Under the pieces are notes generated by a model, which ran no database searches, was not told the DNA's origin, and saw nothing but the letters and a program-made list of their open reading frames with translations. This document shows, one piece after another, positions 43,366-50,700 of a stretch of 64,000 bases of DNA (its first letter is position 1; each line of letters starts with the position of its first letter). Made by a program: the position numbers and the translations under genes. The DNA is taken from assembly GCF_009914755.1 (NCBI RefSeq), contig NC_060925.1; one strand, given 5' to 3'. This stretch comes from the human T2T-CHM13v2.0 reference genome, Homo sapiens.

Positions 43366-43423
43366 TGGATGCTTTTTAAGGTATGGCTATCCATTCAAAA
43401 AACCAGGAAAATTACTTTCTTTT

Positions 43424-43438
43424 GCCACTAGATGGCAG
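43424..43438 (+). promoter_or_regulatory. CTCF-like motif GCCACTAGATGGCAG
   Basis: Matches the CCAC(C/T)AG(A/G)(G/T)GGC core. Confidence 0.6.
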
Positions 43439-43457
43439 AGGAAAACAACAGAATGTT

Positions 43458-43490
43458 CCTGTAATGGTGGAAGAAATGAAAGTAAAACTC
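43458..43490 (-). promoter_or_regulatory. 3' splice acceptor of the RBMXL1 terminal exon (AG 43459-43460; exon starts 240 nt before the ATG)
   Basis: ttttactttcatttcttccaccattacag|GAAC: long pyrimidine tract plus CAG, in host DNA upstream of the retrocopy. Confidence 0.8.
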
Positions 43491-43584
43491 AGAAGTGGAA
43501 ATGTAAAGCAGGGAAAGATGCTTAAAGATACATAAAAAATGCAATTATATTAAGCTCAAAAGTGTGTATAATTAACAGGAGCCC

Positions 43585-43905
43585 TTTTTTTGTTGCTTTT
43601 TTTTTTTTTTTTTTTTTTTTTTTTTTGTAGACAGGAGTCTCACAGTGTTGCCCAGGCTGGAGTGCAGCGGCGCAATCTTGGCTCACTGCAACCTCTGCCT
43701 CCCAGGCTCAAGCCATTCTTGTGCCTCAGCCACCTGAGTAGCTTGGATTACCGGCATGCGCCACCACACCTGGCTAATTTTTGTATTTTAGTAGAGCAGG
43801 GTTTCACCATGTTGGCCATGCTGGTATGGAACTCCTAGCCCAAGTGATCCGCCTGCCTCGGCCTCCCAGTGTTGGGATTATAAGGGTGAGCTACCACGGC
43901 TGGCC
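43585..43905 (-). mobile_element. AluS with long T tail, ~130 nt upstream of the RBMXL1 acceptor
   Basis: Full dimer. Confidence 0.88.
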
Positions 43906-45612: not shown

Positions 45613-45738
45613 AGTTGATTTCCTTAAGGAAGGACAGACCTAAGGAAAAGGTTTTGTCCAGTGTTGCTTTTGCGCTTCTCTGGTGGACATTTAAATTTTA
45701 GACTCTCTTAAAAAAAAAAAAATTAATAGACTATTTTA

Positions 45739-45987
45739 GGGCCAGGCGCGGTGGCTCACGCCTGTAATCCCAGCACTTTGGGAGGCCGAGGCAGGTGGAT
45801 CACAAGGTCAGGAGATTGAGACCATCCTGGACTACAGGTGTGTGCCCAGCTAATGTTTTGTATGTTTAATAGAGATGAGGTTTTGCCATGTTGCCCAGGC
45901 TGGTCTTGAACTCCTGGTCTCAAGCGATCCACTGGCCTCAGCCTCCCAAAGTGCTGGGATTGCAGGTGTTAGCCACTGCGCCCCGCC
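45739..45987. mobile_element. Fused inverted Alu fragments (plus left arm 45739-45830 joined to a minus Alu 45829-45987)
   Basis: ...gagaccatcctgg|actacagg... junction. Confidence 0.8.
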
Positions 45988-47647
45988 TACATTTTTCCTT
46001 TAGCATTCAAAACATTCTTTAAAATTAGAGAATATGTAAAATGTTTTTGTAAAAAAGCAAGTAATACAGGAAAATACAGCCTATCCTTCATTCTATTCCC
46101 TTCCCGGCAGATTTTCATGACATTAAGGATGATGTGGATGAAACGAATATTCTAAGTAAGTTCACAGTAACTTATCTGGCTGGTTCTGACAAGTCTTTCT
46201 TGATTTAAACTTATCACTATTGCTTTTGTAACACTGGCCAGTGTTTTTCATTCGTCCAGCAATAGGAAGAATATTTATCTTTATCCCTGTGCGACTATTT
46301 TAAATGCAAAGCCTCTGATGAACTGTAGACACTTTTCCAATGTAGTTAAAATGATACAAACACTTTGGCAGTTACTTAATTAAACATAAAGCTACCACAC
46401 AACCCAACCATTCCACTGCTAGGTATGGAGAGGGGTTAGTGCTATCCCAAATAGTCCACAAGTTTGAATAATGCATTGTCAGTGGTTTTTGCCTGGGACA
46501 TACATCAGAATCAGCTGGAAAGATTTTTCAAAATACATTCCAGATATGTAGAATTAGAATGCATAATGGTGAGCCCTGGCATACGTAGTCTAATAAAAGT
46601 TCCACAAATGAGGATTGTGCACACAAATGCCCTTTTAGTGCCATGGTTTCATATGTTCACCTTGGGGAAGCACAACCACTTCCCTGGCTTCAACCGACTT
46701 CTATGTTGGGAGAGGGCCTGAAAAAGGTGGTCACGGTGGCATAAAGAGGAGAGAATTCAAGACAGTTATGAGGTAGAATTCATAAGATTTACATATAGAA
46801 GACACTGATGATGGTTTTTATGAAAATTTTAAACCACTGAGAAAATTTTAAACCAGTTGAGAGATTAGAATTAGGTTGAATACAAAATTGTCAATATTCA
46901 ACCAGTTATGACAAAAATGGTACTTCATATGCCAAAAATGGAATTTTCATACAAAAATAGCAATTTCATATACTTTAACCTAATATAAAACACTCATATG
47001 CACACTACCCAGATTCAGTAATTCTCAAGATTTTGCCTCTTTTTTTCTGTAATTGCTGAGTAACTTTAGAATAAATCTTAGACCTTAGGTCATTACATCC
47101 CTACATACTTGGCATATTATCTAAAAAATATTGCTACTTATATAACTGCAATTTCATTACCACACCTCACCAACAATAATTTCTTGTTAACATCTAATAC
47201 CCAGTCCACATTCGTATCTCTCTGATTGTCTTTAAAAAATGTCTTTCTGCATTTTGGTTGACTGAATCAAGTTCCTAAAGCAGATGTACGTATTGTATTT
47301 GGTGGTTATGGGTTTTAAACCTTTTTCGATCCCTGAGCAGTCCTCCTGAAATATCCTCTTCTACTTTTTTCCCATGCCACTGGACCTATATTCATAACTT
47401 GAAGGGTTTTGTGAAGACAAAATGAGGTAATGAATATATAATGACCAGCACATGGCCTGATCCACAGACAGGCAAGCAGTTGCTCAGTGAATGTCAATTC
47501 TAGTCAATGACAAGAGACACCTTCAGCATATGTAATAGAAATGTTCATTTCAATAAAGTATTTGTAAAAAAGCATCTGAAAAATTACATATTTTTTGGAC
47601 AGTGCAGAATATGTACAATAATTTATCTGTAAGTAAGCAATACCTAC

Positions 47648-47746
47648 AGCAGAAGTAGAGAATCCGAGGATTTTGGAAGAAGAAATTGTCTTCAGGAATT
47701 TTGCTCTACCGCTAAGAGAGCAGAGGCTCCTCTGGGCCAAAAACAT
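47648..47746 (-). CDS. KYAT3: KYAT3 exon 2 coding part (exon 47648-47747): MFLAQRSLCSLSGRAKFLKTISSSKILGFSTSA, predicted mitochondrial transit peptide
   Basis: taatag|C ATG acceptor, GCT|gtaggt donor; 33 codons, rich in R/K/S/L with no acidic residues; in phase with exon 3. Confidence 0.92.
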
Positions 47747-50700
47747 GCTATTAAATAAAAGAAAAATTGAGAAGAGGAATAAATATATGATGGGTACATC
47801 ACTATCAGACACTTACAGCTAGCTGATGTATCATAAGCTTACGTAAAATCCAAGTAAACATTTTTGATAAGTGAGTTTGCTTTCTTTCAAGTTTTCTTTC
47901 TATGATATAATCTCTCATCACTGGAGGCATTCTAATAAATGTATTCTTCCTACACAAATTTATATTCACATCATTTTAAACTAGAGAGCTTTAAGAATAT
48001 TCTTAATTAAAAAAATAAGGCTTTAATTTAGTCAAGAGCATTAAATTTCAGAAAGTGAAAGTTCCATTTCTAGCAGCTATAAAATCCAGAGTATTTCAAT
48101 CTAGGAACTACTCAAATTTCAGAATCCTCTGGATAACAGTCACTAGTAAAAGCATAGTTTGTAACAGTAAATTAAAGTTGTTAGAAACAGTTATTTAAAA
48201 AGTTGTTTGAAAAGACGAATGATAGTAGGTCCTTGATAAATATAAAGAATATATGAGTGAATCTTAGGTTATTCTGAAGGTACTTCCTCCAACAATTCCC
48301 ACAAGCCATTTTAGTGGATTCCAGTGGCATGATAGGCATGCATTCTGAATTGCTTCTCTACCTGTAAGTATAAAATTGATATCCGTCATGGGTAAATGGA
48401 GGAAGATCAAGGCAATGAAACTATTACAATACTGCCACTTAGAAGTGGAAAGAAAACCCAGCTTTCTAAAAACATTCAGGCAAATAGATATTTCTCATAA
48501 GGTTTTACTCTGAGAATGTTGTTCTCTTAAGTCTACTGTATAAGGCTGCTGTATCAGTGGATGGCATGTCGTCTAACAGTTATCAAACCTTAGAGAAAAA
48601 GAGACCTAATCTATGGAAACTAAATAGAGCTTCTATATAAAACGCTAACAAATCAAACCCAGTAGTATACAAGAAGGATAATACATCATGACCAAGGGGG
48701 GTTGGGTTTATATAAGAAACCTATTAATGTGATTCACCACATTAAGAGATTAAAGCAGAATTCAATCTTAAAAAAAGTTTCTATCTGTAGTCAAGTTATG
48801 GACTCTTGCTGGGCCTCAGTTTCTCCATTTTTCACAATAGGTGAATAAATTAATAAGGTTTGAGTTAAAGCAAGCAAGTAGCGGGAACCCTCTAACGACA
48901 TAAAGATACAATGGAATTTGCTGATTATGGCGCAGCTGTCCCAAAAGACACAGCTGAAACTTTGGAAAATGGAAGAGAAAGGAAGACCTGGGTCAGTTGC
49001 CAGGAATTACATTGCATGATGGAGGTAATGTGCTAATAATAAAAGCAAGTAAGCTTGGAGTGCAGCTTCTGGGAGATTTCACCCCAGACTGGGTGAGCCA
49101 TACTCTCTAGGTACCAGGCCTCAATGCCCACCTTCCTTCTTAGGGAGCTGCCCCTAAATCTAAGTCTACTTGTTTTCATCTTGAAATCTCAAAGCCTAAA
49201 TCCCAAACCCCTCTCTCCTATCTGTCTTCTACAGCACATTACCTCCATCATGCAATGTACTTCCTGGCTGTGGACTGCTGGAGAAAGTCCCACGGGATAT
49301 TGGTTTCACCACAGATTTGTGGTCATCAGTCTTAAATTGACCCCCAACACTGCAGCATTTCTACTATATTTTGTAGGTAACACTTGTCTCCCATAGTCCA
49401 AAATGATTCTTTAAATTTTTCCCACACTCCTTTAAACTAAATCCCTCTACCTTCTTCCTCAGTCCAAGCAGATTGCGCTCTCTACTTTCCCAAATCTAAA
49501 AAATCCTTGTTTTTTCCTTCCCAGTATAATAAAGGAAATTACCCTCCTTTAAAAGGATCGCCTCTCCTCCACGACTTAGATCTCATTCCCTCTACGGATA
49601 CCTTGCTTCACTGATTATTACCTCTTTACTCCTGCATATTCAACTTTGTTTGTCTCTCCCGGTTAAAAAACATAAAAAACAAACAAAAAACACAAAAAAT
49701 AAAACTCTTGACTGTACCATCTCCCTGTTGCTCATTTTACTAGCTCTCTCCTTTTCCTCAATCTACGCTCCTCAACCCAGTGCAGTCTGACTTTTCACCC
49801 ATTACTCCATAATGGCAACTCTTGCTAAAGTCAGTTTTGACCTTCATATTGTTAAATCCAGTGGACATTTTGCAATTCTCACTTTCCTAGAGCTCTCTGC
49901 AGCTTTAGATACTGGCAGGCAAGCCCTTTTTCCCCTGAGAAACACCATGTCCCCTTGGCTTTTGACATCTTACAATCTCTCATTTATCTCCTGCCTCTCC
50001 CACAATCCGCCATTGAATGATGGAATTCCAAGACCTAGACCTAGGCTCTCTTTCCATCTCACTTATGACCCTCTCACTAGGTAATCTCATTGTGTAAGGA
50101 ACTGTGGGAGCATAGGTGAAAAAATGGCTCTGAAGAAATCTAAGCAGGCTGATAAAAAATGCAGACTCAGAACCTTTGAATCAAGCTAGTTTACATCTGC
50201 ATTTTATTAAGTATTTTGAGCAGCATTTTCTAATGCAATCAACATTGCATATATATATATTCACAAATGAGATAAATACATTAAATTTAGATGTCATCGA
50301 AAAGTTGGAGAAAATAAAAAGGTATATGGCTTTTAATTCTAAACAATATTTTCATTGTATTTTTCTAGTTTCTCCCTAAAAACAATTTCTGTGAAGAAAA
50401 CCTGGCAACTTATGAATCAGGATGATCTACGTGATCTAATTATAGCATATTATGCATAAAGTCCATATTCCAAAACGCATGATCTATAGAAATGAAACTG
50501 TCGATTTATTATCAACGGTTTAGACTGTTTAAAATGAAGATTCAGAAAGTATGCTTGGCAGATTTGGGGGTGGCCCGAAGCTGAGAAAGCTGGTGAATTT
50601 TGGGGGGCCGAATATAAAGCTAAAAGGCAGACAAGCCCGTCAAAATAAATCCTAAGAAACTTAAAGCTCTAGACTTAAATCCAAATGATCAATTTATACT

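What the first reader, a model, noticed from the sequence alone, without database searches (positions are those of the whole stretch)
43387..47747. One cassette exon, two jobs: mitochondrial targeting peptide for KYAT3, 56-codon uORF/microprotein for RBMXL1
Seen: exon 2 (47648-47747) opens with ATG and ends in phase 0. Spliced to KYAT3 exon 3 it gives a basic, acid-free leader. Spliced to the RBMXL1 acceptor (43458) it reads MFLAQRSLCSLSGRAKFLKTISSSKILGFSTSA-EHSVVFLCHLVAKESNFPGFLNG* (TAG 43387-43389), ending 168 nt before the RBMXL1 ATG. Inference: exon 2 inclusion would raise mitochondrial KYAT3 while damping RBMXL1 translation and possibly making a mitochondria-targeted 56-aa microprotein. 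Skipping would give short KYAT3 (from Met35) and a leader without this uORF. RBMXL1 is a splicing-regulator paralog, so feedback on exon 2 is conceivable.
Basis: partly seen in the sequence, partly recalled or inferred. Interest (0 to 1): 0.8.

Follow-up and report, generated by a model that had tools for sequence, protein, structure and literature searches.

The report
Shared KYAT3/RBMXL1 exon makes known uORF
A small exon shared by the enzyme gene KYAT3 and the retrogene RBMXL1 inside its intron supplies KYAT3's mitochondrial leader and, in RBMXL1 messages, a 56-codon upstream reading frame that lowers RBMXL1 translation; both roles are already published.

Summary
On the minus strand, exon 2 (47747-47648) is C followed by ATG and 32 more codons. 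Its donor is in phase 0. Joined to the acceptor at 43458 it gives a 56-codon ORF that stops at TAG 43389-43387, 168 nt before the RBMXL1 ATG.

Both "jobs" are already in print:
- The 171-nt uORF, its roughly threefold repression of a downstream reporter, rescue by AUG-to-UGA, and the exon 2/RBMXL1 junction reads: de Breyne et al. 2025 (PMC12219734). The same ORF was listed as an upstream cistron with a mapped initiation site in 2014 (PMC3951408).
- Exon 2 as an alternatively spliced 33-residue mitochondrial leader of KAT III: two reviews citing Yu et al. 2006.

- The RBMX-derived retrocopy starts at 43363. The acceptor and all 23 tail codons are therefore KYAT3 intron sequence.
- That tail staying open is unremarkable (P about 0.34).
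- The leader and Met35 are kept in the KYAT3 orthologues aligned, from primates to a lizard, so the leader looks much older than the retrocopy.

A mitochondrial 56-residue microprotein and RBMX-family feedback on exon 2 remain untested. I found no support for either.

The parts
51982..52026 (-). Shared non-coding exon 1 of KYAT3 and RBMXL1 (host promoter side). Longer variants reach 52145, 52155 and 52357.
   Evidence: Annotation given with the finding. Donor GGATAG|gtgagt. No ATG in any of 5 exon 1 variants.
47648..47747 (-). Shared cassette exon 2 (100 nt): C, then ATG and 32 more codons. It is the KYAT3 leader and the first 33 codons of the RBMXL1 uORF.
   Evidence: Leader conserved in KYAT3 orthologues. 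Alternative splicing shown by junction reads in PMC12219734.
47744..47746 (-). The ATG that is both the KYAT3 Met1 codon and the RBMXL1 uORF start. A at -3 (from exon 1), T at +4.
   Evidence: AUG-to-UGA restores reporter output (PMC12219734). Initiation-site match to GTI-seq reported in PMC3951408.
43364..43458 (-). Host-derived (KYAT3 intron 2) start of the RBMXL1 terminal exon: the acceptor at 43458 and 95 nt upstream of the retrocopy.
   Evidence: Acceptor attacag|G. Similarity to RBMX and to 6 other RBMX-derived copies starts only at 43363-43366.
43387..43458 (-). Tail of the 56-codon uORF: 23 codons plus TAG (43389-43387). All of it is host intron sequence.
   Evidence: Open by chance with P about 0.34.
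43353..43394 (-). Second small uORF (13 codons plus stop), present with or without exon 2. It lies in another frame, and its ATG sits inside the last codons of the 56-codon uORF.
   Evidence: T at -3, G at +4.
39817..43363 (-). RBMX-derived processed retrocopy: 5'UTR, intact CDS, long 3'UTR and an A14 tail at 39830-39817.
   Evidence: Collinear with 10 exon pieces of the X-linked parent at 91-100% identity and with a further 1.2-kb distal piece at 91%. A-run read.
42046..43218 (-). RBMXL1 coding sequence (390 codons), the main ORF downstream of the uORF.
   Evidence: Annotation. Open 390-codon frame from ATG 43218.
38848..39816 (-). Host-intron extension of the RBMXL1 3'UTR beyond the retrocopy tail. 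ATTAAA at 38868-38863 lies 21 nt before the annotated end.
28801..28859 (-). KYAT3 exon 3. It begins AAA ATG, which encodes Lys34 and Met35 (ATG 28856-28854), the start of the short form when exon 2 is skipped.
   Evidence: Met35 present in 20 of 20 aligned orthologues.

Best explanation
RBMXL1 is a processed copy of X-linked RBMX that landed in KYAT3 intron 2, in the same orientation as KYAT3. It has no promoter of its own.

It is expressed by splicing KYAT3 exon 1, or exons 1 and 2, to an acceptor at 43458. That acceptor lies in KYAT3 intron sequence, 95 nt upstream of the retrocopy. The transcript ends at a poly(A) signal that is also in the KYAT3 intron.

Exon 2 is an old KYAT3 exon whose original job is to supply Met1 and a 33-residue basic leader, reported in the literature as a mitochondrial presequence. 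When exon 2 is carried into an RBMXL1 message, the KYAT3 start codon becomes the first AUG. Ribosomes that start there read 33 leader codons and 23 intron-derived codons, then stop 168 nt before the RBMXL1 AUG.

Reinitiation after 56 codons is poor. RBMXL1 is therefore made mainly by ribosomes that scan past the upstream AUG, and its output falls about threefold.

Shown in print: the junctions, the repression and its dependence on the AUG.

Shown here: the anatomy, the host origin of the acceptor and tail, and the age of the leader.

Inferred:
- The uORF is a by-product of exon capture.
- The 56-residue product has no function of its own.
- The same leakiness at this AUG (about one ribosome in three) would also let exon-2-containing KYAT3 messages make some short enzyme from Met35.
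For: Anatomy:
- Splice sites, frame, stop and spacing.
- First AUG in all 5 exon 1 variants.

Host origin of the acceptor and tail:
- Similarity to RBMX and its other copies begins at 43363-43366 in 7 of 7 matches that cover the 5' end.
- The region is collinear with the RBMX exons.
- The retrocopy ends in an A14 run at 39830-39817.
- ATTAAA lies 21 nt before the annotated end at 38848.

Published function (PMC12219734, sections read):
- Junction reads in four donors.
- About threefold repression in reticulocyte lysate.
- Rescue by AUG-to-UGA, and the same direction of effect in HEK293T cells.
- The authors favour leaky scanning over reinitiation.

Earlier listing: the same 171-nt ORF in NM_001162536 is listed with an exact match to a GTI-seq initiation site in HEK293 (PMC3951408).

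Leader:
- Described as a mitochondrial leader encoded by an alternatively spliced exon 2.
- 74 database proteins match residues 1-60 at E <= 0.001 among 91 candidates.
- In the 20 I aligned, Met35 is present in 20 of 20, the leader is 33 residues in 17 of 20, and it is net basic in 20 of 20, from primates to Varanus.

By-product reading:
- The tail is open by chance with P about 0.34.
- The retrocopy is about 91% identical to RBMX in non-coding parts, so it is far younger than the leader.
Against: - The repression was shown with luciferase reporters only. A change in endogenous RBMXL1 protein was not shown, and the authors say it is hard to show because RBMX is 95% identical and its mRNA more than tenfold more abundant.
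- The GTI-seq initiation site is ambiguous, because the same AUG starts KYAT3.
- I could not test whether the 23-codon tail is conserved in other primates, so 'by-product, peptide without function' is an inference and not a result.
- My own presequence tests are weak. The helical moment is not above shuffles and no simple cleavage motif was found. Mitochondrial import of human KAT III rests on reviews and on the rat fractionation work they cite.
- No target-site duplication could be shown: 0.29 of 500 shuffles reach the observed score.
Confidence: 0.8

Rival explanations
1. The exon-2-containing RBMXL1 message is a true two-cistron mRNA. Its first cistron makes a 56-residue peptide that carries the KYAT3 presequence, enters mitochondria and acts there, or competes for import.
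For: The first 33 residues are the conserved KYAT3 leader. The AUG captures most ribosomes in reporters. The ORF was picked as a polycistronic candidate in PMC3951408. Its stop lies in the last exon, so no downstream exon junction marks the message for decay (anatomy).
Against: The tail is intron sequence that stays open by chance in about a third of shuffles. No 56-residue record was among 9 short database candidates. No RBMXL1 or KYAT3 ORF row was found in the held supplementary files of PMC10032668, which analyses the 7,264-ORF catalogue; those files were cut when stored, and catalogues tend to drop ORFs that share a start with an annotated CDS. From general knowledge: a short product whose presequence is removed would leave about 20-30 residues, a size range that matrix peptidases clear.
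Confidence: 0.06
2. Exon 2 is a coordinated switch. One regulated splicing decision sets mitochondrial KYAT3 and RBMXL1 output together, with RBMX-family proteins feeding back on exon 2.
For: The exon is shared and alternative in both transcript families. Its use changes transiently on B-cell activation. RBMXL1 protein rose weeks after RBMX loss in the mouse work quoted.
Against: On activation the exon 2 junctions to KYAT3 and to RBMXL1 behaved differently, so there is no single inclusion level. CC[AC] motifs occur 3 times in exon 2 (shuffle mean 3.2) and 6 times in exon 2 plus 100 nt each side (shuffle mean 4.9). The searches for RBMX with KYAT3 found no paper other than the 2025 one that bears on this. 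The quoted mouse compensation cannot be taken as evidence for this locus, because I did not check where the mouse gene lies.
Confidence: 0.08
3. The uORF matters little in vivo. Exon 2 forms of RBMXL1 are minor or poorly translated anyway, and the reporter effect does not carry over to the endogenous protein.
For: Both RBMXL1 leaders translate less well than the globin leader and depend strongly on eIF4A. A second 13-codon uORF is present in both forms. RBMXL1 mRNA is more than tenfold below RBMX in B cells, and no endogenous protein data exist.
Against: RefSeq's selected RBMXL1 transcript includes exon 2 (annotation given with the finding). The threefold effect depends on the AUG and was seen both in lysate and in cells.
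Confidence: 0.06

Closest known systems
RBMXL1 exon 2 uORF (de Breyne et al., Sci Rep 2025, PMC12219734)
   Same: It is the same element: the shared exon 2, a 171-nt uORF that starts 1 nt into the exon, repression of the downstream ORF, and dependence on the AUG.
   Different: The paper gives the exon as 99 bp and the gap as 169 nt; the window gives 100 nt and 168 nt. In its main text the paper has 0 occurrences of 'mitochond', 'peptide' or 'microprotein'. None of the 10 places that hold 'KYAT3' says that the uORF AUG is KYAT3's own start codon. Its supplementary figures were not seen.
KAT III / KYAT3 exon 2 mitochondrial leader (Yu et al. 2006, as cited in PMC11354673 and PMC10452834)
   Same: Exon 2 encodes a 33-residue leader and can be skipped. 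The short form lacks residues 1-34, which matches Met35 in the window.
   Different: In the passages I read (those holding my search terms), the reviews do not mention RBMXL1 or the uORF. Yu et al. 2006 itself was not held and was not read.
Rat glutamine transaminase K / KAT I with a 32-residue mitochondrial leader
   Same: It is a paralogous enzyme. PMC10452834 says the dual cytosolic and mitochondrial location of both enzymes is explained by alternative splicing of an N-terminal targeting sequence.
   Different: It is a different gene, and the passages read mention no retrogene using that exon.
LEPR / LEPROT
   Same: [quoted passage not shown] Both cases are listed in the same screen for upstream cistrons (PMC3951408).
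   Different: From recall, not tested here: LEPROT is a recognised protein-coding gene and not a truncated host leader, and LEPR is not a retrogene.
uORFs brought in by alternative 5'UTR exons (ADIPOR1, MS4A1/CD20)
   Same: Inclusion of a 5'UTR exon introduces repressive uORFs, and for MS4A1 the isoform ratio shifts on B-cell activation or EBV infection (Discussion of PMC12219734).
   Different: As described in the passage read, those leader exons are not said to encode another gene's start codon and leader, as this one does.

Membership tests
Upstream ORF that represses a main ORF | An AUG upstream of the main AUG in the mature mRNA, with an in-frame stop before or overlapping the main ORF | tested here: met
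   First AUG of the exon 1 + 2 + terminal-exon transcript. 56 codons, with the stop 168 nt before the RBMXL1 AUG.
Upstream ORF that represses a main ORF | Ribosomes initiate at the upstream AUG | not testable with these tools
   In print: an exact GTI-seq site match (PMC3951408), which is ambiguous because KYAT3 uses the same AUG. Start context read here: A at -3, T at +4.
Upstream ORF that represses a main ORF | Removing the upstream AUG raises main-ORF output | not testable with these tools
   In print: AUG-to-UGA restores the reporter to the level of the form without exon 2 in lysate and raises it in HEK293T cells (PMC12219734).
N-terminal mitochondrial presequence | Net positive charge, few or no acidic residues, rich in Ser/Thr/Ala/Leu | tested here: met
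   5 basic, 0 acidic and 10 Ser/Thr in 33 residues. Net basic in 20 of 20 aligned orthologues, and 13 of 20 have no acidic residue.
N-terminal mitochondrial presequence | Amphipathic helix | tested here: inconclusive
   The best 11-residue helical moment is 0.475, and 0.63 of 2,000 shuffles of the leader reach it. This is a crude measure; no dedicated predictor was on hand.
N-terminal mitochondrial presequence | Processing-peptidase cleavage motif (Arg at -2, -3 or -10) | tested here: not met
   Simple patterns, written from memory, found no match in the KYAT3 N-terminus or in the 56-residue product. Many true presequences lack them.
N-terminal mitochondrial presequence | Import into mitochondria shown by experiment | not testable with these tools
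   The reviews state a mitochondrial leader and report transaminase L activity in both rat cytosolic and mitochondrial fractions. PMC12606907, one of two papers holding both 'KYAT3' and 'MitoCarta', names KYAT3 in its analyses of mitochondria-related genes and proteins.
Retrogene expressed from its host gene's promoter and 5' exons | Intron-less copy of a spliced parent mRNA with a poly(A) tail | tested here: met
   Collinear with RBMX exon pieces with the introns removed. A14 run at 39830-39817.
Retrogene expressed from its host gene's promoter and 5' exons | Target-site duplication | tested here: inconclusive
   The best flank match covers 12 positions with 2 mismatches, and 0.29 of 500 shuffles reach its score.
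Retrogene expressed from its host gene's promoter and 5' exons | Lies in a host intron in the same orientation and is spliced to host exons through a host-derived acceptor | tested here: met
   The acceptor at 43458 lies 95 nt upstream of the first RBMX-derived base. Transcripts come from the annotation, and junction reads are in print.
Functional microprotein from an upstream cistron | Peptide detected, and its frame kept by purifying selection | not testable with these tools
   No primate genomes or proteomics were on hand. No 56-residue record among 9 short candidates. No ORF row for RBMXL1 or KYAT3 in the held supplement text of PMC10032668, which was cut when stored.

The most novel reading that the evidence does not exclude
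The exon-2-containing RBMXL1 message is a real two-protein mRNA. Its first product is the conserved KYAT3 presequence fused to 23 primate-specific residues born from intron sequence. That product would be imported into mitochondria and act there, or titrate import. Capture of a host exon by a retrogene would then have created a new mitochondrial microprotein as well as a translational brake.
Probability: 0.06. Interest if true: 0.6.

Novelty: already known. Interest (0 to 1): 0.2.

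Why it matters
The locus is a clear worked example of a retrogene that borrows its host gene's promoter and 5' exons and inherits the host's start codon as a translational brake. Alternative splicing of one small exon changes both where an enzyme goes and how much of a splicing factor is made.

Both halves are already described: the KAT III leader, credited to work from 2006 in the reviews read, and the RBMXL1 uORF, listed in 2014 and tested in 2025. 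The finding therefore does not open a new question.

Two modest points appear not to be in the 2025 paper's main text:
- The uORF AUG is KYAT3's own Met1, so the measured capture of about two ribosomes in three also predicts how much short KYAT3 an exon-2-containing KYAT3 message can make from Met35.
- The uORF tail and the acceptor are pre-existing KYAT3 intron sequence.

There is also a practical warning. Editing this AUG in the genome changes KYAT3 as well as RBMXL1.

Tried and rejected
Led nowhere or gave a negative result:
- Target-site duplication around the retrocopy. The best flank match is no better than shuffles. A first try with the repeat finder failed on a strand argument and was not repeated.
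- Presequence tests. The helical moment is not above shuffles and there is no simple cleavage motif. I treat this as uninformative, not as evidence against a presequence.
- RBMX CC[AC] motif counts in exon 2 and its flanks are not enriched.
- Search for a 56-residue record among short database proteins: 8 hits among 9 candidates, all truncated KYAT3 models or intron read-through ORFs.
- Ribo-seq catalogues. In the held supplements of PMC10032668, RBMXL1 appears only as an interaction partner of another microprotein, and KYAT3 and CCBL2 appear 0 times; the files were cut when stored.

Could not be reached:
- Three look-ups found no held paper: Han et al. 2009 on mouse KAT III under the PMC id given in a reference list, and the catalogue paper of Mudge et al. 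2022 under a DOI and a PMC id recalled from memory.

Literature searches:
- RBMXL1 with 'retrocop' and 'host gene': 0 papers.
- RBMXL1 with Ribo-seq: 4 papers hold both terms and 3 are listed; I opened none of them, and each holds 'RBMXL1' once.

Considered and rejected: that exon 2 represses through leader length or RNA structure and not through the uORF. The AUG-to-UGA change alone restores output.

Full report
**What is in the sequence**

All features are on the minus strand.
- Exon 2 runs from 47747 to 47648 (100 nt). Its acceptor is a pyrimidine-rich tract ending in tag. Its donor is GCT|gtaggt, which departs from the consensus at the last exon base.
- The exon's first base is C. The ATG is at 47746-47744, and 32 more codons fill the exon, so the donor is in phase 0. 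"Opens with ATG" is therefore off by one base and otherwise correct.
- The RBMXL1 terminal exon begins at 43458 after attacag.
The stop is TAG 43389-43387, and 168 nt separate it from the RBMXL1 ATG at 43218.
- Exon 1 joined to KYAT3 exon 3 makes ATG 28856-28854 the first start, which is Met35.
- None of five exon 1 variants (45 to 376 nt) contains an ATG. The exon 2 ATG is therefore the first AUG whichever start site is used.
- Its context has A at -3 and T at +4.

**Chance**

The junction is real, because RefSeq's selected RBMXL1 transcript uses it. The length of the ORF carries no information, though. 23 open codons after the junction occur in 0.34 of 20,000 shuffles of the 240-nt leader.

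**Already in print: the uORF**

A search for RBMXL1 with KYAT3 found de Breyne et al., Sci Rep 2025 (PMC12219734). I read its Introduction, Results, Discussion and Plasmids sections. It reports the following:
- RBMXL1 lies in KYAT3 intron 2 and shares KYAT3's first two exons.
- RNA-seq reads across the ex2-RBMXL1, ex1-RBMXL1 and KYAT3 junctions in B cells of four donors.
- A 171-nt uORF that starts 1 nt into exon 2.
- About threefold lower reporter output with exon 2 in reticulocyte lysate.
- Full rescue by changing the uORF AUG to UGA, and the same direction of effect in HEK293T cells.
- The authors favour leaky scanning over reinitiation.

The paper gives the exon as 99 bp and the gap as 169 nt. 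The window gives 100 nt and 168 nt.

The same 171-nt ORF, at 378..548 of an older NM_001162536 version, was listed in 2014 as a candidate upstream cistron with an exact match to a GTI-seq initiation site in HEK293 (PMC3951408). Position 378 fits a 376-nt exon 1 reaching 52357, which is an exon boundary in the annotation. A 2026 review repeats the 2025 result.

**Already in print: the leader**

Passages of two reviews bear on this.
- PMC11354673 says KAT III exon 2 encodes a 33-residue mitochondrial leader and can be alternatively spliced.
- PMC10452834 says the canonical isoform has a mitochondrial targeting sequence and that another isoform lacks residues 1-34. It adds that glutamine transaminase L (KAT III) activity is found in both rat cytosolic and mitochondrial fractions, and that rat KAT I has a 32-residue targeting sequence.

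The primary paper, Yu et al. 2006, was not held.

**What the 2025 paper does not say**

Its main text has 0 occurrences of 'mitochond', 'peptide', 'microprotein' or 'Ribo-seq'. None of the 10 places that hold 'KYAT3' says that the uORF AUG is KYAT3's own start codon. It is correct as anatomy.

**New anatomy from the genome itself**

- Searching the window's own genome with 43520-43100 gave 10 matches. One is the window itself. Seven others cover the 5' end: six RBMX-derived copies elsewhere and exon 1 of the X-linked parent. All seven begin at query position 155-158, which is window 43366-43363. The other two matches cover only downstream parts.
- A direct comparison with the parent locus showed ten collinear exon pieces from 43363 down to 41074, at 91-100% identity and with the introns removed.
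- A further 1.2-kb distal piece continues to about 39830 at 91% identity. There the copy ends in a run of 14 A at 39830-39817.

Three consequences follow:
- The acceptor at 43458, the 95 nt that follow it, the whole 23-codon tail and the uORF stop are KYAT3 intron sequence and not RBMX sequence.
- The RBMXL1 message runs 969 nt past the A-run to a host ATTAAA 21 nt before 38848.
- A target-site duplication could not be shown.

**Age of the two parts**

- The N-terminal 60 residues of KYAT3 matched 74 proteins at E <= 0.001 among 91 candidates.
- I aligned 20 of the 74, chosen for taxonomic spread and near-full length. The other 54 were not aligned.
- Met35 is present in 20 of 20. A Met aligns with Met1 in 19 of 20; the horse model starts further upstream.
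- The leader is 33 residues in 17 of 20. It is 27 in two strepsirrhines and 31 in pig.
- The leader is net basic in 20 of 20 and has no acidic residue in 13 of 20.
- Identity to the human-type leader falls from 30/33 to 9/33 (Varanus), while residues 41-62 are nearly constant. This is the usual pattern of a presequence: composition kept, sequence free to drift.
- The retrocopy is about 91% identical to RBMX in non-coding parts. With a substitution rate recalled from memory, that points to some tens of millions of years. This is a rough inference.
- The leader is therefore far older than the retrocopy, and the uORF role is secondary.

**Limits of my own presequence tests**

Composition fits: 5 basic, 0 acidic and 10 Ser/Thr residues. 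The best helical moment is reached by 0.63 of shuffles, and simple Arg cleavage patterns written from memory found nothing. No dedicated predictor was available.

**How it most likely works**

- KYAT3's promoter drives a primary transcript in which exon 1 or exon 2 is joined either to the nearby acceptor at 43458, which ends the message in the intron and yields RBMXL1 mRNA, or to KYAT3 exon 3.
- With exon 2 present, about two ribosomes in three start at the KYAT3 AUG. This figure is inferred from the threefold effect and its full rescue.
- In KYAT3 mRNA those ribosomes make the long enzyme. In RBMXL1 mRNA they make a 56-residue product and are lost to RBMXL1.
- The uORF stop lies in the last exon, so no exon junction follows it.
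- An inference that the 2025 paper's main text does not draw: the same leakiness should let exon-2-containing KYAT3 mRNA make some short enzyme from Met35, which has A at -3.

**Against the simple switch**

On B-cell activation the ex2-KYAT3 and ex1-RBMXL1 junctions rose while ex2-RBMXL1 did not. Exon 2 use therefore depends on which acceptor follows, and one inclusion value does not describe both genes.

**Open parts**

- Microprotein. No 56-residue record was among 9 short candidates. There were no RBMXL1 or KYAT3 ORF rows in the held, truncated supplements of PMC10032668.
- Feedback. CC[AC] motifs are not enriched, and no other paper links RBMX to this exon.
- Conservation of the tail in other primates could not be tested with the tools at hand.

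**Verdict**

The remaining ideas (microprotein, feedback) are unsupported but not excluded.

Noticed in passing
window 43394-43353 (-): A second uORF of 13 codons is present in RBMXL1 leaders with or without exon 2. Its ATG lies inside the last codons of the 56-codon uORF in another frame, and it spans the boundary between host sequence and retrocopy. It might add to the low translation of both leaders relative to the globin leader reported in PMC12219734. I did not see it mentioned in the sections I read.
   Followed up: partly
window 39816-38848 (-): The RBMXL1 3'UTR runs 969 nt beyond the retrocopy's A14 tail into KYAT3 intron sequence and ends after a host ATTAAA (38868-38863). No AATAAA or ATTAAA lies in the 69 nt before the A-run. 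Part of this extension (about 39620-38810) matches many dispersed copies genome-wide at 66-81% identity, so it is probably an old interspersed repeat.
   Followed up: partly
window 41143-39831 (-); G000:C23:135177914-135181069: The retrocopy includes a 70-nt piece and a 1.2-kb distal piece of the X-linked parent, separated there by about 1.9 kb. The source mRNA was therefore a long form with extra spliced 3' exons. A copy on C6 near 48.05 Mb shares this distal part.
   Followed up: partly
L002-L007 (own-genome copies on C9, C23, C4, C11, C6): Six other RBMX-derived copies begin at the same position as the RBMXL1 retrocopy (query 155-158). This suggests they all start at the parent's usual transcription start.
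   Followed up: no
P0050, P0044 (Eulemur, Otolemur) versus other KYAT3 orthologues: The two strepsirrhine KYAT3 models lack six leader residues (27 instead of 33), and pig lacks two. The human/orang-utan and Rhinopithecus leaders have Ser at position 7, where 12 of the 20 aligned sequences have Arg.
   Followed up: no
P0001, P0002 (database ORFs); window 47627-47647 (-): Reading on from exon 2 into the intron stays open for many codons. Two database ORFs (165 and 154 residues) are read-through calls of this kind, one on a genome contig and one on a 1,229-nt contig from another primate. They are probably ORF-caller artefacts or intron retention.
   Followed up: no
PMC13631847 versus PMC12219734: The 2026 review says B-cell activation leads to inclusion of the alternative exon. 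The original paper says activation favours the RBMXL1 form lacking exon 2. The review appears to have reversed the direction.
   Followed up: yes
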